Notes under the pieces: model-generated
What the model was told of the DNA's origin: nothing
Database searches by the model: none
Seen by the model: the letters and a program-made list of their open reading frames with translations, nothing else
From: Escherichia phage JEP7
Reading direction: 5' to 3' (one strand)
Sequence record: MT764207.1
Length of the DNA stretch: 52,936 bases
Part shown: piece by piece, positions 5,979 to 48,321 of the stretch
Position numbering within the stretch: position 1 is the stretch's first letter
Layout of the letters: each line of letters begins with the position of its first letter
Made by a program: the position numbers and the translations under genes

Positions 5979-6355
5979 TGCTCAAGATAACTTCGCTAAT
6001 GAAGGATAAGTCCTTTGTGGCATTAACAGATGTTCTTCTCCGAAATGATTCGCGCTTACCAAACGGTGACTTCGAAGACGAATATACAGCTGCAAAGTAT
6101 CTGTGTAATATTCAACCTGGTGCAGCTACCAACCAGCCTAACCTGTTGACTAAAGACGATGGCGAGCATGAGTTCCCACGTATTGCGATATACTGTGGAC
6201 AAGAGCTGAAGCTCGGAGACTTCGTTATATACGAAGACCAGCCATACCGTGTATTCCGTATCGACCCATGGAGTCGTCATGGCCACTACTACGTTACAGC
6301 AATTCTACATAAAGGACCTCAGGGAGCTCGTTCAGAAGCTTTTACCATTACCTGA
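5978..6355 (+). CDS. hypothetical virion protein
   Basis: 125 aa; ATG overlaps upstream stop (TAATG), RBS GGAGG. Confidence 0.3.
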   Translation: MLKITSLMKDKSFVALTDVLLRNDSRLPNGDFEDEYTAAKYLCNIQPGAATNQPNLLTKDDGEHEFPRIAIYCGQELKLGDFVIYEDQPYRVFRIDPWSRHGHYYVTAILHKGPQGARSEAFTIT

Positions 6356-6806
6356 CGGGACATGTATTATTGGTGAAGAGTCTGGTACAGTTGACGGTAG
6401 TCCGTATGTTTACTTGCGCCCTGGCGACGCATATGACTTCGGACCTCCTCGAACCAGACAAGGCGCTGACGGCTTTGAGTACGTCAGTAAGCCTATGATG
6501 ACATCTGTACGTATTACAGCTGTCGGTAAGAATGCTGCTGAGCTAATGCGTAAGCTACACATAGCACTAGGTAGTTCACCAGCTAAGCAGTTTAACCGTT
6601 TACGACATTATGCAATAACCAAAATATCGAAGATTGATAATGTCGGTGGTGCTATCGGTGCAGGCTATGCCCAGAAGTCAATGATGACTGTTGACATTAG
6701 CTATGTGCATAAAGTTAAGATTGAGCAACCGTACATCTACAAGGTTGACATCACTTGTATGGATGATAACGGTAACAAAGCGACTGGTACAGTAGAGGAA
6801 CCGTAA
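6279..6806 (+). CDS. hypothetical virion protein
   Basis: ATG at 6279 preceded by GGAG; track ORF begins at a GTG at 6249; overlaps upstream gene. Confidence 0.3.
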   Translation: MATTTLQQFYIKDLRELVQKLLPLPDGTCIIGEESGTVDGSPYVYLRPGDAYDFGPPRTRQGADGFEYVSKPMMTSVRITAVGKNAAELMRKLHIALGSSPAKQFNRLRHYAITKISKIDNVGGAIGAGYAQKSMMTVDISYVHKVKIEQPYIYKVDITCMDDNGNKATGTVEEP

Positions 6807-7429
6807 TGGCAACTGGAGTAGACCCGGAACTGCAAGCGCAGCTGGATAAGCTAACAACTGCTGTCCAGCTCATTCATGACTTCGGTATGTCAGACGACCC
6901 AAACATCCCTAACCCGGAAGGTGGTGTCATACGCACACTCGAAGGCATTAACGCTGCAATTAACGAAGCTATACCAAACTTTGAAAATGCTAACGAAGCT
7001 GCTATCCAGGCGCGCGCTGCTCGTGATGTAGCTATTGCAGCCAAAGAAGCTGCAGAAACCGCAGCTGAACAGGCTACAGTATCTTCGACGTCAGCAATCT
7101 ATGAGTATGGCAATGTTGCAAGTGCAGCTACCGTAACTATACCTGCTGCATCTAAAACAATTGTTAGCATTACCCTTAATCAGCCAAACACCGTAATTAA
7201 TATCGGTAATGTATCTGACCCGTCTACTGTTGCGCGTCAGATTACTATTGCTATTAAGCAAGGTACTGGTTCTAACAAGGTGACCGCTTGGGATCCCAGA
7301 ATAAAATGGGCCAACAACAGGAAGCCCGTTCTGTCATTCCTTGTGGGTTACACAGATGTTGTTACGTTGCTGACCTTTGACTCAGGCGCAACTTGGATGG
7401 GTTTCTTTAACGGTGGATGGATTAAATAA
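6806..7429 (+). CDS. hypothetical virion protein
   Basis: 207 aa, Ala-rich helical N-terminal half; start overlaps upstream stop. Confidence 0.3.
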   Translation: MATGVDPELQAQLDKLTTAVQLIHDFGMSDDPNIPNPEGGVIRTLEGINAAINEAIPNFENANEAAIQARAARDVAIAAKEAAETAAEQATVSSTSAIYEYGNVASAATVTIPAASKTIVSITLNQPNTVINIGNVSDPSTVARQITIAIKQGTGSNKVTAWDPRIKWANNRKPVLSFLVGYTDVVTLLTFDSGATWMGFFNGGWIK

Positions 7430-10386
7430 TGCACACGATGTTGCTTAAAGACGGATCAGACCATCGAGCTAATGTCGAAAGCCTTATCGAAGGTCACCAC
7501 CATTTTCTTGAGCGCAATACTGGTAGAACTGACGACGCTACGCGTCAGCACTATATCTTCAACCCAGAAGGAGTAGTGTCGAACAACCGCCATTTTATTG
7601 CGCACACTATGATGGAGTACCAGCCTAACGGTGATGCTCCGTCTGAAAGTCAGTCGCTGCTGATACTCGGCGAAATTCACGCGTACCTTGCTACTAAGGA
7701 ACAGCGGTATCTGGACAAAGCAATTGAGTACTTCAATGCTTACGTCAAGTACTATTACGAGGGGGACCCAATCCCTGATACTCCTCGACGCTGGATCGCT
7801 AACTGGCTTTGTAATGGCAAAGAGCCTGTGCTAGCCAGCTTCCCGATCAACCCTGATTCACCAACACAGGGCGGCTATAAAAATGTGCCTGTTAAATTTG
7901 TTAACGGCAAAGCACAAATCCCTCATGGTTCTCCTTTCTGGGGCGAGTACCTGGATGTTGCTACTTGGGCCCACAGGGGGCACATGGCTTGGCCTGCTAT
8001 TAATGGTGGTGTCCGTGTTATTAAAAATAAAGTTGACTGGGACGATATTTACAACAATTATCGCATCACTACCATGCCAGCTGACCCGTGGAATCAGTTA
8101 GCCTGGATTGACTGGCCGAGGTATCTGGGTGAACCAAGCTACACTGTGGACTGGTCAGCTGCTGAACCTCCTGTACATCTCATCGAGTATATTGTTGCAT
8201 GGACCAATAACAAGATTGGTGTTCTGCCTGGCAAAAACGATGAGCTATGGGGAGGCGAGATTCTTGAGACTGGACTGCCTGACTCTCGTAGAGGTGAGAT
8301 TCAACTCCGTGACCACACTGTTAACGGTGTGTATCTGCTTAACTATGCCGTTAAGCTTCCTGTTGAACACGGTGGTTATTTGCTTAAGCGAAATGAAGTA
8401 TGGCACAACAGACCGGTAAACGTTCCATTGTACGGTGAGCTTCAACGCGGTAATGCTGCTGATGCTGAGTTGTGGTTCTGTGACTGCTGCTATATGCTGT
8501 GGCGAATTACTAACGAGCAAAAGTATTACAACGCTTGGCGAGCTGTCCTGTTTACACTGGAGGAGTATATTGATATTGATAAACAAGACCAGTTCTTCAG
8601 ACAAGACCCTCACGCGTCGTCTCCGTTTACTGATGGTATCTCTTATGATTGGACTTATCCTGAACTGGCACAAGCTATATATTCACGTGATGAAAATGGT
8701 TATATAGTTCTACGTCAGAACCAAAAAGCTCAATCATCTCTGGAGCAACAGGCTGTATGGTTTAAGTGTAAGCCAACAGCTAAGATACGTACCGAGGTTG
8801 GTGGTAAAGATGACGCTGGTCAGAATATCAGTGTCAAGGTGGAAATGTACATGAACCGTGAAAAGGTTGACGTCGAGCAAAACGTCTATCGTTTTGTCAC
8901 ACAGCTACCTGCTCTTGGTGCTTCTCCTGCTAACTACGACATTCCGTTAAGCGATTTTGTCGCAGGTACTAAGCCAGACGGTTCTGAGTATATCTTAGCT
9001 GATATTCGTTCATCCACTGATTATGGTAATGCCACTATTGCAGTGTCTTATCGTACTGACATACTCGACAACAGACGTGGCAACACTGTTCGTATGACTA
9101 TACCTGATAGTTCGTCAGGTGCCATTATAGGCTTTTGGTTACTGGAATCTTCCCAGGCACCTTTAAACTCGCTGACGTATACTTCTACAGGTCCGTTGTA
9201 CATCAAAGTAACTGACGCGCAAGGCTGGAGCTGGGTACGTGATTTACCTGCCGCATCAGGCTGGGTAACTCAGCAGATTCGTACATGGGAGTTCAGGCTG
9301 GCGTCATACCAGGAAAACCCAGGTACACCACCTACCAGCCCACAATTCGGCGAGATTAAGCAGTTCTCGTTTGTACTGCCTGACGGCGTTAATACGTCGA
9401 CAAGTATTAGCTGGTACTGTGTGAATGATGTTCCGCCTCGCTATAACTGGCCAATTGGTTACACGATTAAGTATCGTCTTACTTTCTCGGCTGATAACCC
9501 GTACACAGCTAAGCTAGGTGACTGTACTGTGCTGGACTATGAGAACGATAACCTTGCATATACGCCTGGTGTTATTCCGTTCTCCAACATTTATAACCCT
9601 GATTCTCAGCAGTTTGACGGCTGGCATGGTCTACCTTACCCTGGTTATCAGTATCCGTTTGTCTTTACGCATGATGATACTGCGGCTGGTACGACCAGAC
9701 TTAACAACATGGTTAACTTCTTATACGATTCTCAGCAATGGTACTTTAAGAAGTTTGGCCAGCTAGGTCCTGGCGCATCTGCTTTTATCTGGAACCGTTG
9801 GGATAACTTTAAATACGGTGTACCTGATACATTTACCATGTATCACTGGGGCAACGGTAGTGCATGGTCAGGTTACCAGCCTCGTGCTTACTTCTCCGCA
9901 GCACGTGGATGGTATGAGCTAGTAAACCGTGGTAAGCCGGTTCCGAGTAAGCTTATTGCTTACGTGGATAACTGGTCAAAATGGTTGCTTGACTTCATGG
10001 AAAGGTCAGGAGGTGTGTCACCTTCTAACTTCCCGCAAGAAGGTGTTGCTCTGCCAGTCCCTTCAGACTTCACAGGTCACATGTGTGGACTATGGCTTGC
10101 TGGAGCAGCTATGTCAGCCCTTTGTGGGTCAACAGTATCAGGACTTGATAAGCTGATGGATATGCTTGTCAATGAGCTAGAAGACCACTATGACCTAACT
10201 GGTATTCCGGGGCATGTAATGGATGGTGGTTGGTCGCCAGCGTTACGCCTTGAAACTGGTACAGGACCTGAAAGCAACGCCATGTACTATGGTTTTTACT
10301 CTGGCGAAATATTACGAGGGTTGGGCTTATACCTGCTATACAAAAACAAAGGGGCTAAAGCAGATATTTATGATTTAGGCCCGTAA
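7429..10386 (+). CDS. large Trp/Tyr-rich virion-associated protein, possibly carbohydrate-active
   Basis: 985 aa single ORF, very rich in W/Y/N/D/G; lies between neck genes and Ig-like proteins; no P-loop or other motif recognised. Confidence 0.3.
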   Translation: MHTMLLKDGSDHRANVESLIEGHHHFLERNTGRTDDATRQHYIFNPEGVVSNNRHFIAHTMMEYQPNGDAPSESQSLLILGEIHAYLATKEQRYLDKAIEYFNAYVKYYYEGDPIPDTPRRWIANWLCNGKEPVLASFPINPDSPTQGGYKNVPVKFVNGKAQIPHGSPFWGEYLDVATWAHRGHMAWPAINGGVRVIKNKVDWDDIYNNYRITTMPADPWNQLAWIDWPRYLGEPSYTVDWSAAEPPVHLIEYIVAWTNNKIGVLPGKNDELWGGEILETGLPDSRRGEIQLRDHTVNGVYLLNYAVKLPVEHGGYLLKRNEVWHNRPVNVPLYGELQRGNAADAELWFCDCCYMLWRITNEQKYYNAWRAVLFTLEEYIDIDKQDQFFRQDPHASSPFTDGISYDWTYPELAQAIYSRDENGYIVLRQNQKAQSSLEQQAVWFKCKPTAKIRTEVGGKDDAGQNISVKVEMYMNREKVDVEQNVYRFVTQLPALGASPANYDIPLSDFVAGTKPDGSEYILADIRSSTDYGNATIAVSYRTDILDNRRGNTVRMTIPDSSSGAIIGFWLLESSQAPLNSLTYTSTGPLYIKVTDAQGWSWVRDLPAASGWVTQQIRTWEFRLASYQENPGTPPTSPQFGEIKQFSFVLPDGVNTSTSISWYCVNDVPPRYNWPIGYTIKYRLTFSADNPYTAKLGDCTVLDYENDNLAYTPGVIPFSNIYNPDSQQFDGWHGLPYPGYQYPFVFTHDDTAAGTTRLNNMVNFLYDSQQWYFKKFGQLGPGASAFIWNRWDNFKYGVPDTFTMYHWGNGSAWSGYQPRAYFSAARGWYELVNRGKPVPSKLIAYVDNWSKWLLDFMERSGGVSPSNFPQEGVALPVPSDFTGHMCGLWLAGAAMSALCGSTVSGLDKLMDMLVNELEDHYDLTGIPGHVMDGGWSPALRLETGTGPESNAMYYGFYSGEILRGLGLYLLYKNKGAKADIYDLGP

Positions 10387-10392
10387 CCACTA

Positions 10393-10421
10393 TTTACTTA
10401 ACCGAGGCGCCAGCCTATAAT
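10393..10421 (+). promoter_or_regulatory. sigma70-like promoter embedded in an inverted repeat
   Basis: TTTACT 10393-10398, N17, TATAAT 10416-10421; GCGCCAGC...GCTGGCGC dyad straddles the -10. Confidence 0.45.
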
Positions 10422-10453
10422 AAGCTGGCGCACCCAATAAGAGGATTCTCCAG

Positions 10454-11092
10454 ATGGCAAATCGTACTACAGCCAACCGTCCTGTTAAAGACGCAGACCT
10501 GCGTCAAGAGTCGGTTACTCAGTTCCCGTTAGCAAAGCCGACCAAGCTTGATGAGAACGGAAAATTCATTCCAACCCCAGTTACCGGTGTAACTGTTACC
10601 CCTAAAGCTAAGTCAATTGCTGTTGGTGAGTTTACTACTCTGACAGCAGCAGTAGCCCCGGCAGACGCAGATGACGTCACCGTATTGTGGGAAAGCGATA
10701 CACCTGCTAATGCAACTGTTGATGGTTCAGGTCGTGTTCAGGGTATCAAAGTAGGTTCAGCAACTATTACTGCTAAATCCAAGCTTGACCCTGCCAAAAC
10801 CGATACCGTAGCAATTACGGTAACTGCTCCGCCTGTAGCCGTCACTGGTGTTACGTTAGCGCCTAAGTCGCCCAGCGTTGTAGTAGGCTCTACTGTACAG
10901 CTGACTGCAACTGTGCTGCCTGCTGGCGCTACTAACAAAGCTGTTACCTACGAGTCCAATGACACGGCTAAAGCTACTGTTAGCGCTACCGGTCTGGTGA
11001 CTGGTAAAGCAGCTGGCGTCGTCACCATCACTGTCAAAACAGCTGATGGCAGCTTCACTGACACCGCGTCAGTAACTGTTACTGCTGAGTAA
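10454..11092 (+). CDS. Ig-like (BIG2) domain protein
   Basis: 212 aa with two repeats of the pattern VTGVT..PK...VGxT.QLTATV.P..AT...V.W.S....ATV...G.V.........TIT typical of bacterial Ig-like group 2 domains. Confidence 0.6.
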   Translation: MANRTTANRPVKDADLRQESVTQFPLAKPTKLDENGKFIPTPVTGVTVTPKAKSIAVGEFTTLTAAVAPADADDVTVLWESDTPANATVDGSGRVQGIKVGSATITAKSKLDPAKTDTVAITVTAPPVAVTGVTLAPKSPSVVVGSTVQLTATVLPAGATNKAVTYESNDTAKATVSATGLVTGKAAGVVTITVKTADGSFTDTASVTVTAE

Positions 11093-11103
11093 GGAGCTGA
11101 TTG

Positions 11104-13233
11104 ATGTCGCTTCCACTTAATGAGGTTGTCGACGTCCAGTTCAGTAAGAGCAACGGGGGTAAAGGTTTTACCCCCAATGTTCCGCTGGAAGGTATAATGC
11201 TTTCTAACTACGAGTACTCAATCGTCGCGGGTGATGACCCTGTTCAGCTAGTTGTGCGTTACATTCCAACCAACGCTACTGAGCGTGGTATGGCATGGAA
11301 ATCTAGCGACCCGGACGTTATCACTGTTGATGAGCTCGGATTTGTGAAGCCACTGGCGGAAGGTGTTGCATACGTGACTGGTACGTCTGTTGACGGCGGT
11401 TATACAGTACGGGCAAAGTTTAACATTGCTCGGGCACCTATCCTTGTTGAATCTGTTACAGTGTCTCCCACAAGTGTGACGCTTGAAGAGGGCAAGACTC
11501 AACGCCTGACATACACCTATTTACCTGCTAATGCAGACAAACCTGATTTCTACTGGATTTCAGACGATGAGTCTGTTGCTATAGTTAACGACAGCGGGCT
11601 TGTCACTGCCATTGGAGATGGCGAAACAACTGTAAACGTGCAGTACGGTGTTGACAGCTCTATATTCGATAGCTGTACTGTAACTGTTATTCCGCCTGTT
11701 GTACACGTTACAGGAGTTGAGTTTCTTACTCAGTCGCCTATTAACGTTAATATCGGAAGCACAGCTGGTACTAGTATTCGTATATCGCCAGAAGATGCCA
11801 CTGACAAAACAGTGACATACGAAAGCAGTGCGCCTGATGTAGCAACTGTGGATACTGACGGAAATGTTACTGGTATTATAGCTGGTAATGCCACTGTTAC
11901 TGTTAAGACGAATGACGGTGATAAGACTGACACTCTTGACATTATAGTCAGGGTACCTGCTGTAAATGTTACAGGTGTAAGTATTGATGAAGGCGATACA
12001 GCTTCTATGGAGGTTGGTGACACGCTTCAGCTACATGCCACTGTGACTCCTGAAAATGCTACTGACCCGTCTGTTGTATGGAGTGCTCCTGTATCAGAAG
12101 TTGCGTCTGTGACTGAAGCTGGTTTGGTAACCGCTAACGCTGCAGGTTTAATTGATGTTACTGTTATCACTAATGATGGGAACTTTACTGATAGAATCGA
12201 GGTTAAAGTTACAGACCCCAGAATCGCAGTTACGGATGTTGCATGGGCTCCTGACTCTCCGACTAAAGTAAGTGCCGGCCATCAGGTGCAAACTAAAATT
12301 GTTATAACACCTGACAACGCAACTAACAAAAAAGTTAGCTACAATAGTTCAAACCCAGACGCTGTTACTGTTGACACTAACGGAGTTATATACGGCCAAT
12401 CTCCTGGAACTTCGACTATTACAGTTACAACAGACGACGGTGGACTTGTTGCTTCGTTTGTAGCGACTTGCACAGAGGTGGCTGTTATTACACCAGATGG
12501 TCTTGGTGGTATTCCAGTAGGTGGTACTCAGCAGTTCACTTACACTGTTAACCAGTCTGACGCTGAGCTGACTAATATTCGTTATGAGTCTGCTGACCCA
12601 GCTATTGCAACTGTTGATTCATCAGGCGTTGTAACTGGTGTTGCTAGCGGCGGATGTAACATCTGGATTTACGCAACTAGTAATGGTGCTGACATTAGCG
12701 CAGCTACTTGGGCACAAATTTCTGAGAGGGTACAGGTCTATCCGCAGTATGCTGAATGGCTTGTGGGTAACACCAAACAACTTGATGTTGAGATCTATCC
12801 GTCGGACTCTAAGAGCGTTACTGTTACTTATAGCTCGTCAGATGACTCTATAATTAGTGTAGATGCAAATGGCTTGATGACTGCTAAGTCTGAAGGTTCA
12901 GCAACTATTACTGCTAACGTTGTAATGAACGGTGTTGCTGCTTCTGGTACAACATCTCCTTACGTGTCTGAGCTTTCTGTTACTACGGATTCGCTGCCTG
13001 CACTTACTGTTGGTAACACGCAGCAGCTCGTTGTAACTGTTAGACCTGAATACGCTAAGACAGACGCAGGCTATAGCATTCAGTATACAACTACAGACGA
13101 TACTGTCGCTACTGTAAGTAATGCTGGTGTTATTACTGGTGTTGGTAGTGGTGGATGTCGTATTGGTGCCACAGTAACTGTGAGAAACGCTACAGCGTCG
13201 GACAGCTCTTATCAGTCCGTCGATGCAGCATAA
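11104..13233 (+). CDS. multi-domain Ig-like (BIG2) repeat protein
   Basis: about 709 aa with at least six tandem Ig-like repeats of the same pattern; ATG at 11104 with AGGAG RBS (track starts at a TTG at 11101). Confidence 0.6.
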   Translation: MSLPLNEVVDVQFSKSNGGKGFTPNVPLEGIMLSNYEYSIVAGDDPVQLVVRYIPTNATERGMAWKSSDPDVITVDELGFVKPLAEGVAYVTGTSVDGGYTVRAKFNIARAPILVESVTVSPTSVTLEEGKTQRLTYTYLPANADKPDFYWISDDESVAIVNDSGLVTAIGDGETTVNVQYGVDSSIFDSCTVTVIPPVVHVTGVEFLTQSPINVNIGSTAGTSIRISPEDATDKTVTYESSAPDVATVDTDGNVTGIIAGNATVTVKTNDGDKTDTLDIIVRVPAVNVTGVSIDEGDTASMEVGDTLQLHATVTPENATDPSVVWSAPVSEVASVTEAGLVTANAAGLIDVTVITNDGNFTDRIEVKVTDPRIAVTDVAWAPDSPTKVSAGHQVQTKIVITPDNATNKKVSYNSSNPDAVTVDTNGVIYGQSPGTSTITVTTDDGGLVASFVATCTEVAVITPDGLGGIPVGGTQQFTYTVNQSDAELTNIRYESADPAIATVDSSGVVTGVASGGCNIWIYATSNGADISAATWAQISERVQVYPQYAEWLVGNTKQLDVEIYPSDSKSVTVTYSSSDDSIISVDANGLMTAKSEGSATITANVVMNGVAASGTTSPYVSELSVTTDSLPALTVGNTQQLVVTVRPEYAKTDAGYSIQYTTTDDTVATVSNAGVITGVGSGGCRIGATVTVRNATASDSSYQSVDAA

Positions 13234-15349: not shown

Positions 15350-15531
15350 AACGCAAGCAACAGTCAGGGACGCAAGAAACTGACTGGTTCATTTGGCTTC
15401 CTATTCTCAAGGGTCATGTGACCCTTGCAGAATTAAAGTCGTCTTACAGCTTGTGTGATTTGTGCGACCTGCATATTGCTATTCTGGACTATGCCGAGTT
15501 AGAGGAAATCCATGGCGACCATAATCGATAG
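14921..15531 (+). CDS. tail assembly chaperone, -1 frameshift-extended form (GT-like)
   Basis: slippery site T_TTT_TTC at 15289-15295 in the zero frame; the -1 frame is open for 78 codons from 15295 to TAG at 15529-15531, filling the apparent gap before the tape measure gene. Confidence 0.5.
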
Positions 15532-17173
15532 CTTTCTGGTAACGCTTGAGAGTAAAGCCGATAGCGCAGGCTTTGACCTCTTCGACCAGCTGTCCCGCCG
15601 TTTTGTGATTACCCTCGGCGATGTAATCAATCTTGCTGAGCGTGCCGCTGGTGCGCTCGGTAGGATGTTTGCGCCTGCGTTAGAGGCTGACGTACTCGCC
15701 GCCAAGATTAAAGGCTTCGGCTACGACGTCGAATCGACGTGGAAAACGCTGATGGATATGTCTTTGCAAATGGGTACACCATTTCAAGAGGCACTAGACG
15801 GCTTTACTAAACTTAAAGCGTATGGCGTTGACCCGTTAAACGGTTCACTACAAATGCTCAAAACAATCACTGCTGCAACAGGCGGTGATTTGGCGCGTAC
15901 CATTGTTGCGTATGGCCAGGCAACTGCGATGGGTTCATTGCAGGGCCAGGAAAAGAACCAATTCATTAACGCCGGTGTTGACATCTGGGGCGCATTGTCC
16001 CGTTACACTGGTAAGAAGCTTGGCGAGCTTCAGGATATGATGCGGCAGAAGCAAATCACTGCCGACATACTGACTAGCGCGCTCAAACAAGAAGCCGAAC
16101 GTTTAAAACCAATTGCCCACGAAGTGTCGCAGACACTCAAAGCGCAGTTAACTAACCTGAGTACAATTTGGTATGCTGCTCGCTCTAAGATTACCCAGAC
16201 CCGAGTATGGGACGAGGTAACCAAAGGCGCGATAAATATGGTTAAGTCACTTACCGCAGTGCTTAACGATACCACACTTACTGCAGCATTTAAAAAGTTT
16301 GATGAAATTGTATTCAATACAATTGAAAATATAAAACGACTTATCTACGTTATCGGGGATAACTTCCCGTTAATGGTTGCAATAACTTCGTACGCACTAT
16401 TGGCACTTATTCCCGTGCTGACTAAGGTCGGCAATGCCTTTGTGGGTTTAGCTGCCAAAATACTTATGAACCCGCTTACGTGGATTGTACTTGCTATCGG
16501 CGCAGTTATTGCTGTACTCGCTGACCTCGATGATGCTCTGGCAGGACGTGAGACAGTTGTTAAGTGGTCAAAAGACGTTGTTGCTGCATGGGGAATTGTC
16601 AAGCAGTATATCGTAGTTATTGCAGACTTTATTCTGTCAATATTTGACGGCCGCTTATGGAACCGGCTCGGTAACTGGTGGCAAGGTTTCCTCGGCGAAG
16701 TTAAGCAAGGCATAGAGCAAATAAAGCTGTGGTTGTCTGAAGCACTTTACCAGCTGCCTGGCGGTAAGTTCCTGATGGCGTTGTTTGGTAAGCTCGATTC
16801 TACGCTTGGCTTTGCTGGCAACAAACTTGTGACAGGTGCTGAGGCCACTGTTAATGCTGTGTCGCCTACAACTGAGCAGGGCGGAAGCTTCTGGAGTAAG
16901 GCACTCAACTGGTCAATGCGTAACTTCAACCCTATCACAGGGGAGATGACAGCTGGGGGTCAGGCTATGCAGTCGGCGATAAATACTGCTAAGCAAAACC
17001 AGCAGCAGAACGCGACTGTTATCCACCAGGATAATAGCGTTAAAGTTGACGCTACTATTACCGGTGTACAGAACCCACAAGAAGTAGGTCGTGAGGTCAA
17101 TGACCAGGTCAAACAGGCGCAGAAAGAGAATGCTACTGTAAGGGCTAACAACAAAACGGCGGTAACACAATGA
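15512..17173 (+). CDS. tail tape measure protein
   Basis: 553 aa; Ala/Gln-rich helical protein with central hydrophobic segments (LMVAITSYALLALIPVL..., IVLAIGAVIAVLADL); directly after chaperone frameshift cassette. Confidence 0.65.
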   Translation: MATIIDSFLVTLESKADSAGFDLFDQLSRRFVITLGDVINLAERAAGALGRMFAPALEADVLAAKIKGFGYDVESTWKTLMDMSLQMGTPFQEALDGFTKLKAYGVDPLNGSLQMLKTITAATGGDLARTIVAYGQATAMGSLQGQEKNQFINAGVDIWGALSRYTGKKLGELQDMMRQKQITADILTSALKQEAERLKPIAHEVSQTLKAQLTNLSTIWYAARSKITQTRVWDEVTKGAINMVKSLTAVLNDTTLTAAFKKFDEIVFNTIENIKRLIYVIGDNFPLMVAITSYALLALIPVLTKVGNAFVGLAAKILMNPLTWIVLAIGAVIAVLADLDDALAGRETVVKWSKDVVAAWGIVKQYIVVIADFILSIFDGRLWNRLGNWWQGFLGEVKQGIEQIKLWLSEALYQLPGGKFLMALFGKLDSTLGFAGNKLVTGAEATVNAVSPTTEQGGSFWSKALNWSMRNFNPITGEMTAGGQAMQSAINTAKQNQQQNATVIHQDNSVKVDATITGVQNPQEVGREVNDQVKQAQKENATVRANNKTAVTQ

Positions 17174-20016: not shown

Positions 20017-20388
20017 ATGCGAACTAGACGACTCGATTCAAACTGGGACTGGAATTTTGGGCGTGGCCGACTTGACTACGCCGATACGTCTGAGTCCATT
20101 GAACAACGCATCGTGCAGATACTCCGCTGTTATACTATGGACTGGGTACATGACCTGGACTATGGTATTGACTGGTTCGGACTAATGGAGAAGCCTGTTC
20201 GATGGGCTGACCTGGAAGCTGCAATCAAGACAGCAATACTTGCGGAGTATGGAGTTAGTTCTATCGAGAGCTTTACCCTAAGCTTCGACCCTGACTCACG
20301 TCACGCTGTTTATTCGGTTGAGGTTAATGATATTTACCACAACACAACCTCTATTAACAGAAGTATTAATTTAACCGGAGAAAACTGA
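20017..20388 (+). CDS. baseplate wedge protein (gpW/gp25-like, putative)
   Basis: 123 aa small protein immediately upstream of J-like gene. Confidence 0.35.
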   Translation: MRTRRLDSNWDWNFGRGRLDYADTSESIEQRIVQILRCYTMDWVHDLDYGIDWFGLMEKPVRWADLEAAIKTAILAEYGVSSIESFTLSFDPDSRHAVYSVEVNDIYHNTTSINRSINLTGEN

Positions 20389-21560
20389 TGGGCTCTGTAA
20401 CTAGCACAGGCTATGTTCCCGTCAAGCTCGACGACTGGATCAGCAGATTCGAAACGCTCTTCCGTCGTGTGTACGGCGCGGATATTGATTTGTCAGCTAA
20501 GTCTGCTGACGGACAAATGGTTGGTATTCTGGCGCAGATGTTTGCAGACCAGGACGAGCAAGTTGCAATTCTGTTTTCTATGCTTGACCCTAACCAGGCA
20601 TCTGGTGTATACGTAGACCAGTTCCTTGCCTACGTAGCGCTTCAGCGTAAAGGCGAGATGTCAACGCTGTTGACCAGGGTTAAGATCGAAGGTGACCGTA
20701 ACACTATTATACGTACTCCTTACTATGTAACTGACAGCTCGAATAACGTGTACCAGCTTAACTCCACTGTTGCGCTGGATGATAACGGTGTAGTCGAAAC
20801 AAGCTTCAGTTCTGTTAAGACTGGCCGCTTTGTCGTACTTGCAAACGATGAGCTTAAACCACAGACCATCGTTTCTGGCGTGCGTAAAGTTACCAACATG
20901 CAAGTGTCATCTGGCGGTGCGTCCACTGAGCTCGACTCTGAGGCAATAGACCGGGCGTATAACTCTTACGGCAAACCTGGCACGAACAGCTTAGACGGTA
21001 TTGTTGCTGAGATTCGTCAGATGACTGATGTTATCGCGTGTAACGGTTACGAGAACGAAGAAGATACTCGGGACCCGTTAACTGGCTTACCTCCTCACAG
21101 TATGCAGATTGTTGTGGATGGTGGTTCGCCTGCTGCTATTGCTGACTGTATCTTCCGTCGTAAAACTAATGGCTGTAAGCAGATTGGCACTGTGTCTTAT
21201 CAGATTACGGATAAGTCAGGTACACAGCGCACAATGAAATGGAGTCAGCCTACTTATGTTGAGGCTTATGCTTCACTCGTTGTAGCCCGTAAGGAACTGT
21301 TTACCGACGTTTCCGAGGAACTTATTAAGAATGCTATTCTGTCCAAGGTATACAATATCGGTGAAGAGGTATCAACCTACGAACTGGGTCAGCTAATTCA
21401 AGAAGCGAATGGCGTAAGCCCTAACTTCTACATCAAGACTTTCTTTGTGGGTAAATCAGCTAATCCGTCGACAGATACGATTCTGCGTATCACTGCTCTT
21501 GAGCGTGCAATATTCGCTGCAGACCGTATCACTATTGCAGTGGTGAATGCTGATGGCTGA
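20388..21560 (+). CDS. baseplate J-like protein (putative)
   Basis: 390 aa; position between W-like and I-like genes upstream of tail fibre. Confidence 0.4.
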   Translation: MGSVTSTGYVPVKLDDWISRFETLFRRVYGADIDLSAKSADGQMVGILAQMFADQDEQVAILFSMLDPNQASGVYVDQFLAYVALQRKGEMSTLLTRVKIEGDRNTIIRTPYYVTDSSNNVYQLNSTVALDDNGVVETSFSSVKTGRFVVLANDELKPQTIVSGVRKVTNMQVSSGGASTELDSEAIDRAYNSYGKPGTNSLDGIVAEIRQMTDVIACNGYENEEDTRDPLTGLPPHSMQIVVDGGSPAAIADCIFRRKTNGCKQIGTVSYQITDKSGTQRTMKWSQPTYVEAYASLVVARKELFTDVSEELIKNAILSKVYNIGEEVSTYELGQLIQEANGVSPNFYIKTFFVGKSANPSTDTILRITALERAIFAADRITIAVVNADG

Positions 21561-22206
21561 ATATCATAAACTACTTATTCAACAGTACGCTGATAAACCA
21601 AAAGCTGTTGCAACTATTAAGGGCTTCGATGATGCAATTCAAGGTATCTGGGACGGCGCCCAACAAGTTGTTGATAGCCTTAATATAGATAAAGCTTTTG
21701 GTAAAGGTCTTGATAATGTTGCAGCCCGCGTCGGTGCATCTCGTGTTCTCAAGAAAGGCGTAGACCGTAAGTTCTTCGGCTTTACCAACAAAGTACCAGA
21801 CGTGCTTGGCTTCGGTGGTTCGTCTGGTAATAAAGGTGGCCCGTTCTATCGCTACGGTGCATCAGTTTGGGACCCGGTAATTCTTGACGACATTGACCTG
21901 CGTACTTACATCAAGATGAAAATCTGGAAGAACATGCAAGACGGTACTATGCCGTATCTAATTGACTTCCTGATTGAATTCTTCGGAATGAATAACTTCG
22001 TTATAACTGACAACGAAGATATGACAATGACTCTGGAGATATACAGTACTCTGACTCCGCTTAAACAAGTGTTGATTCAGAACTATGATATTCTTCCGCG
22101 CCCCACAGGGGTGAAGATTGAACTTAACACGAGCGTTGACGTCACGGATAGTCTGTACCGTTACGCTACTGTAAACTTACCAGCACAGGTGAATGTATAT
22201 GGCTGA
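21547..22206 (+). CDS. baseplate/tail protein (gpI-like, putative)
   Basis: 219 aa; overlaps both neighbours; synteny. Confidence 0.3.
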   Translation: MLMAEYHKLLIQQYADKPKAVATIKGFDDAIQGIWDGAQQVVDSLNIDKAFGKGLDNVAARVGASRVLKKGVDRKFFGFTNKVPDVLGFGGSSGNKGGPFYRYGASVWDPVILDDIDLRTYIKMKIWKNMQDGTMPYLIDFLIEFFGMNNFVITDNEDMTMTLEIYSTLTPLKQVLIQNYDILPRPTGVKIELNTSVDVTDSLYRYATVNLPAQVNVYG

Positions 22207-23533
22207 TGTACAAACAAGACCCGATAACGACATCTTCGCCAGCTCCGCGGGTACTGGTGAACTGCTGCCGTTCGGTGACCTTGCTCGTGGCTGGGGTGCA
22301 ACCCTTGGCTACTCAGAAGGTATTCCTCCGATGGAGTGGTTTAACTTTATCGGTAACCGTACTGACAAAGGTATCCACTACATCCTTCAGCAGGGTGTTG
22401 ATATATGGGTAGAAACTGAGACCTACCCGGTTGGTGCACTGGTTAAAGTTAACGCCGACAATATGCTGTACCGTTGTCTGGTGCAGAACATTAATATGCC
22501 ACCGTCTGCTAACCCTACACAGTGGCGTCCTGTACTTGACCTGACAGCTGCATCTGCTGCAGCACGACAGGTTGGTAAAGCCTCTGGTAACGTAATCCAG
22601 GTCGGTGCATTTGGCTTAGGCGGCAACGCTGAGGTAGTTACTAATGCTAACAGCATTGTAAACGACGGTATCTACCAGCTTCCAGCGTCAGGTACGGGCG
22701 GACCTACTAACGGCGTTGAGACTGAGATTCTGCATATCAACTGGGATGAGAAAAACGCTTCACAGTGGGGACGCACCAAGGGTAAGCGCGTAATAGCCAT
22801 GCGCGAGAAGGTTAACAATACCTGGGGCGGATGGTCATACTCTTACGGGCCTGACAATAAACCTACTGCCTCTGAGCTGGGTATTAATCAGGACTTCATC
22901 CCTATGGATGGTTCTGACTCAATCCGAGGTAACTTAGGTACTGTCGGCTGGCTGCATATTGCACGTACTACTTCCGACTTGCTACGTGCTGCTAACTCCG
23001 CCGGCGTAGGTACTGTTGAGTACTCCGGTAACATCGCAGGCGGTACTGCTGTTCAGGAGTTGCTGACTTCGGTTTCTGTTGCGGCTAACAGTAATGTTAT
23101 CACTGCGGCTCGCTGGGGTTCTGTGCCTATGTCACATATCCAGCACCTTCTTACGGCAGGTGGCGCTACCCAGATTAACATGGCGGTATGTCGCCCTGGT
23201 GGTATTGCCGACCGCCGTACAGTAGCTTTGCAGGTGGATGGCCTTAACAGCCGAGTAACTACCACAAATAGCTTTATTTTATGCGAGAATGGTGTTAGAG
23301 TATATTCACCTAACAACCCGCAGCCTATCGATACTTCAGCCGGTAACGTTCGGGGTATTCGACTCGGCGCTCGTATTGCTGCTGGTGTATCCGAGTCAAC
23401 GTTCTACCCTGGGCATGTAATGACTGGCTGGCGCTTCGGCAATAAGAAAGAGCTGCGTGGTGGTACATACTGGTCAGCGCCGTTACAGTATTATATCAAC
23501 GGCACTTGGATTAACGTAAGCAACGTATCGTAA
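22193..23533 (+). CDS. tail fibre protein
   Basis: 446 aa, Gly/Ala/Thr/Ser-rich; followed by two tail-fibre-assembly-like genes. Confidence 0.5.
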   Translation: MYMADVQTRPDNDIFASSAGTGELLPFGDLARGWGATLGYSEGIPPMEWFNFIGNRTDKGIHYILQQGVDIWVETETYPVGALVKVNADNMLYRCLVQNINMPPSANPTQWRPVLDLTAASAAARQVGKASGNVIQVGAFGLGGNAEVVTNANSIVNDGIYQLPASGTGGPTNGVETEILHINWDEKNASQWGRTKGKRVIAMREKVNNTWGGWSYSYGPDNKPTASELGINQDFIPMDGSDSIRGNLGTVGWLHIARTTSDLLRAANSAGVGTVEYSGNIAGGTAVQELLTSVSVAANSNVITAARWGSVPMSHIQHLLTAGGATQINMAVCRPGGIADRRTVALQVDGLNSRVTTTNSFILCENGVRVYSPNNPQPIDTSAGNVRGIRLGARIAAGVSESTFYPGHVMTGWRFGNKKELRGGTYWSAPLQYYINGTWINVSNVS

Positions 23534-41943: not shown

Positions 41944-44452
41944 TATTCTCGGTCTGAAATACTTTAAGCCAGAAGGGATTCCCCAAGTCTTCAAAGATAT
42001 GAAGCGCTGGGCTATCTTTGAGCTAACGTACGAAGACGAGACTCTTGAAGTTCAATCCAAACCGAAGAAACCTGCAAGAGCGCCATCAGGCCGTTCCTTC
42101 AGCACAACAGTGCCTGAAGAGTGGATGACTTTCGACGACGCCCTGACACGTTGTATTCGCAATCGTGAAATGAAGATTAAAGCTGTACAGGGTAATATCA
42201 CCTTTGTGCCGGCTTTGGTTGTTCCTCGCCAGTGGTACTTTGTTGACCTGGACAACCATGAAGATAACCCAGACATTGAAGCTACCCACAAGGCGATAAT
42301 TGAGGGGACCCGTGGTGCTTATGCCGAGACGTCAATCTCTGGCAAAGGGCAACACATTGCAATCCCTTTACCCTGGACTGCAGCAACATCTAAAGAGAAA
42401 GACGAACAGCTGGACATCAAAATCCAGAAGGCTGAGATGTTCCTGGTAATGACGGGTAACGTGTTGAGTGAGTTCAATGCTAATCCTGTTTCAGCCCGTG
42501 AATGGCATGCAGCAATTGAGAAGTTCTTTCTTGAATCAAGCGCACCTGACATTGATGTTGAGTTTGAGCAAGACGAAGACCGTGGCGAAGAGTATGACAA
42601 AGAGCTGTACGAACAGCTAGCCGACAATACTCGCTGGGCTTTAGAACACTATCTGAATGAGCATGCACCAGACGGTGTTGGTGTGAGTAACGACGGTTCT
42701 GAACGTTTAAGCCGTATCCTAAAAGACTTGCTTCGTGTAACCCGTAACTATGAAGTTACACAACGCATCTTTATGGCCAGCAAAGCTGCAGCATACGAAG
42801 GTCGTCGTCCTAGCCGACATAACTTGTCTGTTGATAAGTACCATCAGTGGTTCAGTCGTGTCGGTAAGACTGTGCTGAAAGAGATGCAACGTGATGGCTT
42901 ATTCGTTAAGACCAAGTTTGCTCTTGACATCAACAAAGAGTTAACCAAGAATTCTGGTGTCTCCCTGGCTGAGAATGTTGAGTTCAAAGTCAACGACGAT
43001 ATTCTGCCATCTGATGTATTCGTCAGGACGGCTCCGTCCGGGTTTAAACGGCTTATTGCTGAGATACAGGATAACATATCTCCTGCTAACAGGGTTAACG
43101 ACTATGCCATCGGCACAGCTCTTAACATCCTGAGCAACTGCGCTGGTCGCAAGTATGTTTGTCCAGTAGGCGGTCATGCTAACTTCCTGGTAACCAACAT
43201 CATTCTTGTGGGTGGTTCATCAATCGGTAAATCGTTGTATACTGAGATGTTCCCACAAATCCAGGCAAGCTTACCTGACACATCGCCTATCAGCCTTAAT
43301 CGTATTCCAAGGGAACAGACTTTTGCAACCAGGACGTTTGCTGAACTGATGTCCAACCCGTCATACCATTCAGTACAGTTGTTCTATCCTGAATTTGGTC
43401 TGGCTTTAGGTTCAGGCTTACGCATGAATCCTAACAACCCGGACAACTTTCAGAAAGCTCTGATGGACGCTTCAACCAAGCGTAAGGTTGGTGGTATACT
43501 GACAGGTATCAAACGTGCTAATGCTGACAATGATGTCAAGACAGTAAGCGAACCGTGTTACTCTATCCTGGGTGACTCCACTCAAGAGCTTATTCTTGAC
43601 AACACCCGGAAGCAAGACTTCTCAAGTGGCTTTTTGCCCCGCTTCCTGTTCATCCCGAACTATGAACGAGCGGAGTTTGCCAAACCTGAGAAGGTAGGAC
43701 GTCGCCAGCAGATTCGCCGTACTCAATTCTCCAAAGAGCTGATTGAGAAGCTGGAAGCAATCGCTTATGTGAATGCTATCCCGCCTAACGGTAAACTAAG
43801 GCATGACCCGATTCCTATTTACGACGAATCGGACGATGATGACTTCCTGTATGAGTACCAGTGCAATATTAATGACATGCGCAAGTATTACAGGGACAAC
43901 GAAGTAGCATCCGCCTTTGTGGGCCGAATGGGTGAGTATGTATTCAACATAGCAGCACTGATTGGCTTACTCGACAACTGGGATGCTCCTGTAATGACCA
44001 GGGACAACATCGAATGGGCTTACAAATATGTTCTTCGTTGTATAACCGCCTGGGTCAATAACACAAGCAGGATAGTCGCACCACCAACTACCAACGCCGA
44101 AGTAGTGGACGGCTTCCTAAAAGTCTACAGGGACATTTTGGCCCTTTACACCAAAAGAGGATGGTCTGGCATTGTCAAGCATTATCCCGAAGGTGTTGTA
44201 AGAAGTATCCGGGAAGAACACCTCCAGATGAATGGTTTAAGCATATATGCTATTCGTCAGTCTTTGAGCTGGTTTAAATCGAATTACGGTTTTAACATCA
44301 CAGCTAATAACAAAGTCATTGACGGTATGCTCCAGGATATGATTGACCAGGACTATTTAGCAGTACAAGTATATAAGCCCACAAGAGGCCGATCTGCTAA
44401 CATTTACTGCCTGACGGAGCGAGGATATGACACTGCTAAGAAGTTAAAATAA
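41918..44452 (+). CDS. DNA primase / SF3 helicase fusion (D5/P4-type)
   Basis: 844 aa; C-terminal Walker A GGSSIGKS in a helicase-like domain; N-terminal region with acidic DxD-like motifs (FVDLDNHED); replication-block position. Confidence 0.65.
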   Translation: MTMTSQPSDILGLKYFKPEGIPQVFKDMKRWAIFELTYEDETLEVQSKPKKPARAPSGRSFSTTVPEEWMTFDDALTRCIRNREMKIKAVQGNITFVPALVVPRQWYFVDLDNHEDNPDIEATHKAIIEGTRGAYAETSISGKGQHIAIPLPWTAATSKEKDEQLDIKIQKAEMFLVMTGNVLSEFNANPVSAREWHAAIEKFFLESSAPDIDVEFEQDEDRGEEYDKELYEQLADNTRWALEHYLNEHAPDGVGVSNDGSERLSRILKDLLRVTRNYEVTQRIFMASKAAAYEGRRPSRHNLSVDKYHQWFSRVGKTVLKEMQRDGLFVKTKFALDINKELTKNSGVSLAENVEFKVNDDILPSDVFVRTAPSGFKRLIAEIQDNISPANRVNDYAIGTALNILSNCAGRKYVCPVGGHANFLVTNIILVGGSSIGKSLYTEMFPQIQASLPDTSPISLNRIPREQTFATRTFAELMSNPSYHSVQLFYPEFGLALGSGLRMNPNNPDNFQKALMDASTKRKVGGILTGIKRANADNDVKTVSEPCYSILGDSTQELILDNTRKQDFSSGFLPRFLFIPNYERAEFAKPEKVGRRQQIRRTQFSKELIEKLEAIAYVNAIPPNGKLRHDPIPIYDESDDDDFLYEYQCNINDMRKYYRDNEVASAFVGRMGEYVFNIAALIGLLDNWDAPVMTRDNIEWAYKYVLRCITAWVNNTSRIVAPPTTNAEVVDGFLKVYRDILALYTKRGWSGIVKHYPEGVVRSIREEHLQMNGLSIYAIRQSLSWFKSNYGFNITANNKVIDGMLQDMIDQDYLAVQVYKPTRGRSANIYCLTERGYDTAKKLK

Positions 44453-44463
44453 GTAAGTAAATC

Positions 44464-44506: not shown

Positions 44507-44599
44507 AGCTTATTTTACAAACTGATTAATATTTAAACTATAATTAAATATATGGGCTCTAAGAGTATGATTTTATTACTCTTTTACAAATCATAATAT

Positions 44600-48317: not shown

Positions 48318-48321
48318 CTTA

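What the first reader, a model, noticed from the sequence alone, without database searches (positions are those of the whole stretch)
7429..10386. 985-aa aromatic-rich protein encoded between the neck genes and the tail module
A protein of this size is not expected at this position in a head-neck-tail gene order; the tape measure gene is identified separately at 15512-17173. The sequence is very rich in Trp, Tyr, Asn, Asp and Gly, as in carbohydrate-binding or carbohydrate-active enzymes and some receptor-binding proteins. It may be a virion-borne depolymerase or adhesin in an unusual location, or a large decoration or ejection protein.
Basis: inference. Interest (0 to 1): 0.5.

Follow-up and report, generated by a model that had tools for sequence, protein, structure and literature searches.

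The report
Tail-borne cellulase-like enzyme with adaptor
The 985-residue protein is a virion tail appendage built on a cellulase-type enzyme fold and attached through a small adaptor protein encoded just upstream; three unrelated phages that need host cellulose to infect all carry the same gene pair, so it is the best candidate for how these phages recognise, and perhaps cut, bacterial cellulose.

Summary
The ORF is real (7429-10386, 985 aa) and is enriched in Trp, Tyr and His, but not in Asn, Asp or Gly. The window is a BP63-like Salmonella myovirus (Rosemountvirus). The protein belongs to a large family annotated only as "tail protein" (phrog_2871; 532 phage records). It has no Pfam, NCBIfam or PDB sequence match.

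The gene is always coupled to an anchoring device. Of 75 informative loci, 64 have an upstream adaptor with a conserved C-terminal beta-sandwich and a swappable N-terminal tail-fibre anchor, and 11 have a direct N-terminal fusion. The S144 orthologue was found in virions by mass spectrometry.

Three independently reported cellulose (bcs)-dependent phages carry the cassette: Salmonella SPLA2 (enzyme 99.3% identical to the window's), Erwinia M7 and Vibrio BX-1 (tested on VAP7, its published 99.7% match). The Vequintavirus orthologue is dispensable on cellulose-negative E. coli K-12.

Best reading: a portable, adaptor-docked, cellulose-targeting tail glycosidase or adhesin. Enzymatic activity, substrate and position on the virion are inferred, not shown.

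The parts
6806..7429 (+). Adaptor gene (207 aa), translationally coupled to the enzyme gene. It has an N-terminal alpha-helical stalk and a conserved C-terminal beta-sandwich.
   Evidence: phrog_27998 'tail fiber protein'. AF2 model: pLDDT 81, helices at residues 7-28 and 37-92, beta-sandwich at 100-207 with pLDDT about 95. The C-domain is conserved in the upstream gene of 64 of 75 informative loci. The S144 orthologue gp16 was found in virions.
6824..7081 (+). Adaptor N-terminal helical stalk (aa 7-92). This is the lineage-specific, presumed tail-anchoring part.
   Evidence: AF2 secondary structure. It has no Pfam match. In other phages this position holds Phage_T7_tail, Tail_spike_N, phage_tail_N or Phage_tail_fib domains.
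7103..7426 (+). Adaptor conserved C-terminal beta-sandwich (aa 100-207), the presumed docking domain for the enzyme.
7427..7431 (+). TAATG stop/start overlap between the adaptor and enzyme genes.
   Evidence: Read directly from the sequence.
7429..10386 (+). Enzyme gene (985 aa): a tail-associated (alpha/alpha)6-barrel glycosidase-like protein.
7465..7758 (+). Barrel segment 1 (aa 13-110), which carries the putative catalytic-acid motif.
   Evidence: Helices 13-29, 72-89 and 92-109.
7639..7656 (+). Motif PSE73SQS (family consensus TTEGQS). E73 is the putative proton donor.
   Evidence: E73 is invariant in 50 sequences. It gives the best hhalign local match to the BcsZ TSEGQS motif. Its ungapped placement is rank 1 on BcsZ E55 (z 4.6) and on S6 gp094 E155 (z 3.2).
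7759..8448 (+). Beta-rich insertion 1 (aa 111-340), nested in the barrel.
   Evidence: AF2 secondary structure. M7 gp042 has an extra insertion of about 160 aa here. A cluster of SPLA2/SPLA11 differences at residues 200-250, including W221A, falls here.
8449..8604 (+). Barrel segment 2 (aa 341-392), with motifs NAAD345AE and DQFFRQ.
   Evidence: D345, E347 and W349 are invariant. Placement is rank 1 on BcsZ SASD116GDVW (z 5.9), on GH48 NAPDAE (z 4.5) and on GH48 DKYFRQ (z 5.2).
8626..9543 (+). Beta-sandwich insertion 2 (aa 400-705), resembling a carbohydrate-binding module.
   Evidence: AF2 predicts an all-beta region. Foldseek matches CBM11 with probability 1.0 over about 160-180 columns; I assign that match to this region by inference. 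phrog_23426 matches residues 520-696. SPLA2/SPLA11 differences S575Y, Y591C and W620S fall here.
9640..10383 (+). Barrel segment 3 (aa 738-985).
   Evidence: Helices 752-776, 816-833, 840-859, 883-899, 906-919 and 955-974. Invariant residues sit at the helix N-termini (Y816, R819, H884, E960, R963).

Best explanation
Genes 6806-7429 and 7429-10386 form a two-gene receptor-binding cassette of the virion tail.

The 207-aa adaptor has a helical stalk that anchors it to the tail, most likely at the baseplate periphery. Its conserved C-terminal beta-sandwich holds the 985-aa protein.

The 985-aa protein is an (alpha/alpha)6-barrel glycosidase-like module related in fold and in two active-site motifs to clan GH-M cellulases (GH8, GH48). 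Two nested beta-rich domains probably bind glycan.

On the cell surface the module binds host bacterial cellulose (in Salmonella, phosphoethanolamine cellulose) as a primary, conditionally required receptor. It probably cleaves the beta-1,4-glucan using E73 as the proton donor. This would let the phage reach the outer membrane, where the Mu-type tail fibre (22199-23533) and the baseplate complete adsorption.

Status of each step:
- Shown here or in cited work: the gene is real; the predicted fold; motif conservation; the obligatory coupling to an anchoring device; virion presence of the orthologue; bcs-dependence of three phages that carry the cassette.
- Inferred: physical docking of the enzyme on the adaptor; the attachment site; cellulose as the ligand of this particular protein; catalysis.

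My component probabilities: tail-borne glycan-targeting appendage about 0.9; cellulose as the target about 0.55; catalytically active rather than binding only about 0.55.
For: Fold:
- The AF2 model has pLDDT 88.7 and pTM 0.83.
- Foldseek gives GH48 and CBM11 matches at probability 1.0.

Motifs:
- E73 and D345 are invariant.
- Their segments place at rank 1 on BcsZ E55 and D116 (z 4.6 and 5.9), and collinearly on E155, NAPDAE and DKYFRQ of a true GH48. E55 is a catalytic residue of BcsZ (PMC11379886).

Anchoring:
- 64 of 75 informative loci have the adaptor directly upstream, 11 have an N-terminal fusion (10 to Tail_P2_I), and none has neither.
- Adaptor N-termini include T7 fibre, TSP1/Gp66, prophage tail-fibre and tail-collar anchor domains.
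- In P2-like contigs the order is W-J-I-adaptor-enzyme-fibre H.

Virion presence: S144 gp17 and gp16 were detected by MS.

Cellulose link:
- SPLA2 TraDIS hit bcsG, bcsC, bcsB, bcsQ, bcsR and bcsE. SPLA2's enzyme is 99.3% identical to the window's, its adaptor 99.5%, and its tail fibre 100%.
- Erwinia M7 requires cellulose and has gp041/gp042 as the cassette.
- Vibrio BX-1 needs bcsE for adsorption. Its 99.7% relative VAP7 has gp019/gp020 as the cassette.

No other candidate: no GH5, GH8 or GH48 homologue is found in the window or in M7, and no other carbohydrate-active domain is found in the window's tail module.

The orthologue bas54_0026 is dispensable on E. coli K-12, a host in which bcsQ is a pseudogene.
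Against: - No Pfam or NCBIfam GH model matches, even when the insertions are removed. Global hhalign against BcsZ fails.
- The GH8 catalytic base (BcsZ D243) has no identifiable counterpart; D792 does not map to it. The protein could therefore be non-catalytic.
- The window protein has Ser rather than the near-invariant Gly after E73.
- Carrying the family does not imply bcs-dependence. Rosemountvirus SPLA11 was not reported as bcs-dependent; its authors propose LPS. Seoulvirus SPLA1a depends on O-antigen, and I found family members in other Seoulvirus genomes. Vequintaviruses infect cellulose-negative K-12.
- The link between bcs genes and this protein is correlative (three phages, found by a literature search). 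No one has mutated the gene in a bcs-dependent phage. In BX-1 the delta-bcsE mutant still makes cellulose.
- I had no model coordinates, so I could not check the active-site geometry.
Confidence: 0.55

Rival explanations
1. The module is a tail-borne glycosidase or binder for a different conserved surface glycan. Candidates are the N4 glycan receptor (a ManNAc polymer), enterobacterial common antigen, the LPS core, PNAG or colanic acid. On this reading the bcs-dependence of SPLA2, M7 and BX-1 is mediated by another protein or is indirect.
For: - Vequintavirinae, which all carry the family, depend on wecB/NGR on K-12.
- Fold-level matches to GH76, GH88 and GH105 are as strong as those to cellulases.
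- SPLA11 and the Seoulvirus phages are linked to LPS rather than bcs: SPLA1a experimentally, SPLA11 by its authors' proposal.
Against: - bas54_0026 is dispensable on K-12, where NGR is needed. BASEL attributes NGR recognition to a different, deacetylase-domain fibre.
- The sequence motifs match clan GH-M specifically.
- Three of three tested bcs-dependent phages that lack a classical cellulase carry the family, against about 1% of all phage records.
Confidence: 0.2
2. The protein is a non-catalytic adhesin. The glycosidase fold is kept as a lectin-like binding scaffold for cellulose or another glycan, and no bond is cleaved.
For: - No counterpart of the GH8 catalytic base was found.
- The window protein deviates from the TEGQ consensus (PSESQS).
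- There is no halo or enzymatic report for any family member in the literature I searched.
- Aromatic substitutions between SPLA2 and SPLA11 lie in the beta-domains rather than the barrel.
Against: - E73, D345, E347 and a ring of residues at helix N-termini are invariant across proteins only 29-50% identical. That pattern is typical of a conserved active site.
- The position of the catalytic base varies among GH8 subfamilies (established knowledge), so failure to map it is weak evidence.
Confidence: 0.2
3. The protein is a structural, decoration or ejection protein with no role in carbohydrate recognition.
For: - The gene sits between the neck and sheath genes, next to Ig-domain proteins.
- No curated family names a function for it.
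Against: - The gene is obligatorily coupled to tail-fibre or baseplate anchor domains in every lineage.
- The Vequintavirus orthologue is dispensable for making infective virions.
- There is no resemblance to ejection or tape-measure proteins.
Confidence: 0.03

Closest known systems
Erwinia phage S6 gp094 (GH48) and gp095 (GH5, experimentally verified cellulase); cellulose is the primary receptor of S6 (PMC9544554)
   Same: Both are phage-encoded enzymes associated with bcs-dependent infection. gp094 shares the clan GH-M (alpha/alpha)6 fold and collinear acid, NAxDAE and FRQ motifs with the window protein.
   Different: gp094 matches Pfam GH48 at 662 bits and shows no BLAST similarity to the window protein. 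S6 lacks the adaptor cassette and the nested beta-domains. The window family matches no CAZy-type Pfam model.
BcsZ and other GH8 endo-beta-1,4-glucanases (PF01270)
   Different: There is no HMM-level match. The counterpart of the base D243 was not found. The barrel is split by two insertions of about 230 and 350 aa. The window protein is virion-borne rather than periplasmic.
Adaptor-plus-tailspike systems of podoviruses and myoviruses (T7-fibre N-domain adaptors; G7C gp66/gp63.1 and CBA120 TSP branching through TSP1/Gp66 N-domains)
   Different: The distal protein is a globular (alpha/alpha)6 barrel, not a trimeric beta-helix spike. The conserved docking domain (about 110 aa, beta-sandwich) has no Pfam family.
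Vequintavirinae 'lateral tail fiber protein with glycosidase domains' (e.g. bas54_0026 of phage MaxBurger; rV5, phi92-like and PVP-SE1 relatives)
   Same: It belongs to the same protein family (29-42% identity over the full length) and has the same adaptor gene upstream.
   Different: It sits inside a large multi-fibre locus. It is dispensable on K-12. No receptor has been assigned to it.
SSV19 VP4 tail protein (PDB 7xdi_F)
   Different: It comes from an archaeal spindle-shaped virus. There is no sequence relationship and no adaptor cassette, and its function is different or unknown.

Membership tests
phrog_2871 'tail protein' (phage protein family) | Full-length profile HMM match | tested here: met
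   E = 0, 1420 bits, residues 3-980. 532 phage records hold full-length tblastn homologues.
Glycoside hydrolase family 8 (Pfam PF01270) | Sequence-profile match to the family model | tested here: not met
   No Pfam hit at E <= 1 for the whole protein, and none at E <= 10 for four barrel-only constructs. hhalign against a BcsZ profile gives only a 6-residue local match, E 0.043.
Glycoside hydrolase family 8 (Pfam PF01270) | (alpha/alpha)6 barrel fold | tested here: met
Glycoside hydrolase family 8 (Pfam PF01270) | Catalytic proton-donor Glu in the SEGQ-type motif (BcsZ E55) | tested here: met
   E73 is invariant. The ungapped profile placement of residues 68-80 is rank 1 on BcsZ 50-62, z 4.6. 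This rests on sequence register only; the geometry was not checked.
Glycoside hydrolase family 8 (Pfam PF01270) | Signature Asp motif (A-[ST]-D-[AG]-D...; BcsZ D116) | tested here: met
   Residues 342-352 (NAADAELWFCD) place at rank 1 on BcsZ 113-123 (SASDGDVWMAW), z 5.9. D, W, E, Q and Y are in register over 22 residues.
Glycoside hydrolase family 8 (Pfam PF01270) | Catalytic base Asp (BcsZ D243) | tested here: not met
   Neither segment 784-800 (D792) nor segment 812-822 places on the BcsZ D243 region. No alternative base was identified, because no model coordinates were available.
Glycoside hydrolase family 48 (Pfam PF02011) | Sequence-profile match to the family model | tested here: not met
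   There is no Pfam hit. BLASTP against the true GH48 S6 gp094 gives E 0.53, while gp094 itself scores 662 bits on the Pfam model.
Clan GH-M (GH8 + GH48), as a distant relative | Shared fold plus collinear acid and Asp motifs | tested here: met
Any glycoside hydrolase | Demonstrated hydrolytic activity on a defined glycan | not testable with these tools
   This needs a recombinant protein assay.
Classical phage tailspike depolymerase | Trimeric right-handed parallel beta-helix catalytic domain | tested here: not met
Adaptor-docked (two-component) receptor-binding protein | A separate adaptor gene with a tail-anchor N-domain, adjacent to and co-inherited with the distal protein | tested here: met
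   64 of 75 informative loci; 25 adaptor clusters; four known anchor Pfam domains; a TAATG overlap in the window.
Adaptor-docked (two-component) receptor-binding protein | Physical complex of adaptor and distal protein on the virion | not testable with these tools
   There is only indirect support: both S144 orthologues are present in virions. No multimer prediction or PAE output was available.
CBM11-like carbohydrate-binding module | Beta-jelly-roll fold similar to CBM11 | tested here: inconclusive
   Foldseek probability 1.0 and TM about 0.5 to 6r31, 1v0a and 2lro. The fold is generic, and the ligand-binding residues were not examined.

The most novel reading that the evidence does not exclude
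This family would be a previously unrecognised, virion-borne glycoside-hydrolase family of clan GH-M. It would be the general cellulose-recognition and cellulose-degradation module of phages that infect Gammaproteobacteria. It is portable between myoviruses, podoviruses and jumbo phages through a universal docking domain on exchangeable adaptors. Bacterial cellulose would then be a widespread primary phage receptor, relevant to at least 500 sequenced phages, rather than a curiosity of Erwinia phage S6.
Probability: 0.4. Interest if true: 0.75.

Novelty: new variant of a known kind. Interest (0 to 1): 0.62.

Why it matters
Cellulose-dependent infection has been reported independently for Salmonella, Erwinia and Vibrio phages. 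In the papers I could search, only Erwinia phage S6 has had a phage determinant named (GH5 and GH48 enzymes). This analysis nominates one conserved gene pair as the determinant in the other three, with specific residues to mutate (E73, D345).

If the hypothesis is correct, it would do four things:
- define a new phage enzyme family acting on biofilm cellulose;
- explain a conserved but unassigned "lateral tail fiber" gene of the Vequintavirinae and of many jumbo phages;
- provide a modular adaptor/docking system usable for engineering receptor-binding proteins;
- inform cocktail design, because bcs mutations would be the expected resistance route and they carry biofilm and virulence costs.

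If it is wrong, the protein is still a well-supported glycan-targeting tail appendage with an unusual non-beta-helix architecture.

Tried and rejected
1. Direct family assignment failed. Pfam, NCBIfam and PDB sequence searches with the single sequence gave nothing. A PDB search with the family profile gave only a marginal GH76 hit, E 0.014.

2. Global profile comparison with BcsZ failed. In-silico removal of the two insertions did not rescue a Pfam match.

3. I proposed D792 (RWDN) as the counterpart of the GH8 base D243. The placement test rejected this.

4. I suspected that S6 gp094 belonged to this family. It does not; it is a true GH48 with no sequence similarity.

5. The natural experiment comparing SPLA2 (bcs-dependent) with SPLA11 was uninformative. 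The enzyme (31 differences), the tail fibre (10 differences) and the Ig-710 protein (one repeat missing) all differ.

6. The relationship between the Rosemountvirus adaptor N-terminus and the P2-type adaptor N-termini is weak (z about 3, and the sequences are Ala-rich). The attachment site therefore remains undetermined.

7. No natural adaptor-enzyme fusions were found among the 120 homologues examined.

8. The SD286 'gp38' RBP paper concerns a 123-aa protein, not this gene.

9. A literature search for six-hairpin phage depolymerases found nothing.

10. I considered a fused adaptor+enzyme AF2 run. I did not do it, because the tool returns no PAE or contact output with which to judge an interface.
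Full report
**Observation**

The ORF at 7429-10386 (+ strand, ATG start, 985 aa) exists as described. It overlaps the stop codon of the upstream gene in a TAATG junction.

Compared with the 22 other proteins of the structural module, it is enriched in Trp (2.6x), His (2.2x), Tyr (2.0x) and Pro (1.7x).

The window is a Rosemountvirus, a BP63-like Salmonella myovirus. It is 98-99% identical over 8.5 kb to phages triss, emiel, emhyr and yarpen.

The gene order is terminase, portal, scaffold, capsid, Ad1, Neck1, neck terminator (6249-6806), a 207-aa gene, the 985-aa gene, two Ig-repeat proteins, sheath, tube, tape measure, a P2/Mu-like baseplate, a Mu-type fibre, and lysis genes. The position between the neck and sheath genes is therefore real, and it is conserved in the genus.

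**What the protein is**

It matches phrog_2871 ("tail protein") at 1420 bits. It matches nothing in Pfam, NCBIfam or the PDB by sequence.

Full-length homologues at 29-50% identity occur in 532 phage records of very different types:
- Vequintavirinae, where BASEL annotates the gene as "lateral tail fiber protein with glycosidase domains";
- Seoulvirus, Asteriusvirus and Goslar-like jumbo phages;
- Kolesnikvirus;
- 7-11-like and T7-like podoviruses;
- Vibrio, Aeromonas and Photobacterium phages.

Homologues also occur in many metagenomic contigs and prophages.

An AlphaFold2 model built on a 50-sequence alignment is confident (pLDDT 88.7, pTM 0.83). Helices at residues 13-110, 341-392 and 738-985 form an (alpha/alpha)6 barrel. 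The barrel is interrupted by a beta-rich insertion (about 111-340) and a beta-sandwich region (about 400-705).

**Is it an enzyme?**

At the sequence-profile level the protein is not a member of GH8 or GH48. This holds even after the insertions are removed in silico.

Two invariant family motifs nevertheless correspond to clan GH-M active-site motifs:
- Family segment 68-80 (consensus TTEGQS, E73) places at rank 1 of about 350 positions on the BcsZ TSEGQS motif (E55, z 4.6).
- Family segment 342-352 (NAADAE, D345) places at rank 1 on BcsZ SASD116GDVW (z 5.9).

The same segments, plus DQFFRQ, place collinearly at rank 1 on E155, NAPDAE and DKYFRQ of the genuine GH48 gp094 of phage S6. Glu55 and Asp243 are the catalytic residues of BcsZ (PMC11379886).

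I could not find a counterpart of the base Asp243, and my candidate D792 failed the test. I had no model coordinates, so I could not check active-site geometry. I therefore rate catalysis at about 0.55 and keep a non-catalytic adhesin as a live rival.

**How it is mounted**

The upstream 207-aa gene is part of the system. I examined 80 loci that hold a family member (from the phage database and from IMG/VR). Of these, 75 have enough upstream sequence to judge. The result:
- 64 have an upstream ORF whose last ~100 residues are a conserved domain, ending within about 60 nt of the first aligned residue of the enzyme in nearly every case;
- 11 have an N-terminal extension on the enzyme itself, 10 of them a P2 gpI (Tail_P2_I) baseplate domain;
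- none has neither.

The adaptors fall into 25 clusters with unrelated N-termini. These include Phage_T7_tail, Tail_spike_N (TSP1/Gp66), phage_tail_N and Phage_tail_fib domains.

In P2-like contigs the cassette lies between baseplate gene I and fibre gene H. Other family members carry C-terminal fusions to a GP4 gp77 adaptor, to N4 non-contractile sheath domains, or to Big_2 repeats.

This is the signature of a portable distal tail module docked on exchangeable anchors. Physical docking, and the attachment site in Rosemountvirus, are inferences. The N-terminal similarity to baseplate-associated P2-type adaptors is only z about 3.

The S144 orthologues of both proteins were found in purified virions: gp17 (111 kDa) with 25 peptides, and gp16. 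H169 confirms that these two genes are the cassette.

**What it targets**

Three independent reports tie phages that carry the cassette to host cellulose biosynthesis:

1. Salmonella SPLA2 (Rosemountvirus). [quoted passage not shown] The window's enzyme, adaptor and Mu-type fibre are 99.3%, 99.5% and 100% identical to SPLA2's.
2. Erwinia M7 (Kolesnikvirus). It "requires cellulose" (PMC13101476). Its gp041 and gp042 are the adaptor (E 4e-18) and the enzyme (46-58% identity).
3. Vibrio BX-1. It needs bcsE for adsorption (PMC11792527). Its 99.7% relative VAP7 encodes gp019, a minimal adaptor that is almost only the C-domain (E 8.5e-26), and gp020, the enzyme (family HMM 690 bits, all motifs present).

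The fourth known case, Erwinia phage S6, instead encodes classical GH48 and GH5 cellulases.

Neither the window nor M7 encodes a detectable GH5, GH8 or GH48 homologue. The window's other tail proteins show no carbohydrate-active domain.

The family occurs in about 1% of phage records. Finding it in all three of these phages by chance is therefore unlikely. The sample is small, however, and was found through a literature search.

Conversely, the Vequintavirus orthologue bas54_0026 tolerates transposon disruption on E. coli K-12. K-12 is a host whose bcsQ is a pseudogene. This fits an accessory module that is needed only when cellulose is present.

**Evidence against, and limits**

- Carrying the family does not predict bcs-dependence. 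SPLA11 (Rosemountvirus; its authors propose LPS) and SPLA1a (Seoulvirus; O-antigen) are not reported as bcs-dependent.
- The SPLA2/SPLA11 comparison cannot assign the difference to one gene.
- The delta-bcsE mutant of the BX-1 host still makes cellulose.
- The receptor could be the Bcs machinery rather than the polymer.
- The fold is shared with enzymes that act on other glycans.

Alternative substrates (NGR, ECA, PNAG) therefore remain possible. I rate that rival at about 0.2.

**Comparison with the known, and novelty**

The protein works like a virion-associated depolymerase or receptor-binding protein mounted through an adaptor. Comparable systems are T7-type adaptors, G7C gp66/gp63.1 and CBA120 TSP branching.

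It is not a beta-helix tailspike, and it is not a sequence member of any curated GH family. Others have noted a glycosidase-like nature: an HHpred "hydrolase" hint for S144, BASEL's "glycosidase domains" annotation, and Atoyac's "glycosidase superfamily" annotation.

I did not find the following points in the searchable literature:
- the split-barrel architecture;
- the clan GH-M motif correspondence;
- the universal adaptor docking domain;
- the association with cellulose-dependent infection.

I classify the finding as a new variant of a known kind.

**Verdict**

The best explanation is an adaptor-docked, cellulose-targeting, GH-M-like tail module, with overall confidence 0.55. Interest is 0.62. 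The result is ordinary in kind, since phage tail glycanases are well known. It still gives a concrete and directly testable answer to which phage protein underlies cellulose-dependent infection in three systems, and it assigns a function to a conserved, unassigned tail gene found in hundreds of phages.

Noticed in passing
window 10454-11092 and 11101-13233: Two Big_2 Ig-repeat proteins (212 aa, and 710 aa with about 8 repeats) lie between the enzyme and the sheath genes. The 710-aa protein is one repeat shorter in SPLA11 (622 aa). The S144 orthologue of the small one (gp18) had 80% MS coverage in virions. They may be tail-surface fibres or decoration, and their role is unknown.
   Followed up: partly
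window 10387-10453 (hairpin 10407-10431; promoter-like site 10393-10421): The 67-nt gap after the enzyme gene holds an 8-bp GC-rich hairpin (GCGCCAGC...GCTGGCGC; -19.7 kcal/mol; z -3.3; none of 200 shuffles folds as well). No T-run follows it. Its loop contains the TATAAT of the best sigma-70-like match in the region (TTTACT-17-TATAAT, 10 of 12 positions). The BP63 GenBank record also annotates a promoter somewhere under the 8.5-kb match.
   Followed up: partly
enzyme residues 221, 575, 591 and 620 (window about 8089-9290), compared in L086 and L087: SPLA2 and SPLA11 differ at 31 enzyme positions. The differences cluster in the two beta-domains (residues 200-250 and 548-655) and include aromatic gains and losses (W221A, S575Y, Y591C, W620S). 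This is the kind of change expected to alter glycan binding.
   Followed up: partly
L089 (Vibrio phage D504) 929-4203: In this unrelated 157-kb Vibrio phage the adaptor+enzyme cassette also sits directly after a neck gene ('head closure Hc2'). This echoes the window's unusual placement and leaves a neck or collar attachment formally possible.
   Followed up: no
phage database records PP583539.1 and MG0656xx: A record named 'Listeria phage' is 96.8% identical to Salmonella Rosemountviruses. About 18 'Campylobacter phage' records are about 98% identical to rV5-like E. coli phages. These are probably host misassignments or contaminants in public records.
   Followed up: no
window 20017-20388: This 123-aa baseplate protein gives a weak Pfam Sheath_initiator match and is annotated as a baseplate wedge subunit in phage yarpen. 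It has the same length as the 'gp38' that a 2026 paper on Rosemountvirus SD286 proposes as a receptor-binding protein (PMC12946066). I did not check whether the two are the same protein.
   Followed up: no
window 44001-45000 and 48001-49000: There are local GC dips (0.349 and 0.368, against about 0.46 elsewhere). Cumulative GC skew reverses near 26 kb, where gene orientation switches from the structural module to the replication module.
   Followed up: no
proteins P0119, P0041, P0105 and P0066: Some family members are fused to other tail parts: the N4 non-contractile sheath N-domain and TIM barrel (1557 aa), about 700 aa of Big_2 repeats, the GP4 gp77 fibre-tail adaptor, or the P2 gpI domain. 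The module is therefore recombined very freely across tail architectures.
   Followed up: partly
window 21547-22206 and M7 gp037 (L088 1882-2730): Both phages have a DUF2612 baseplate protein immediately before their fibre genes. The Rosemountvirus and Kolesnikvirus baseplates therefore look related, even though the cassette sits in different places in the two genomes.
   Followed up: no
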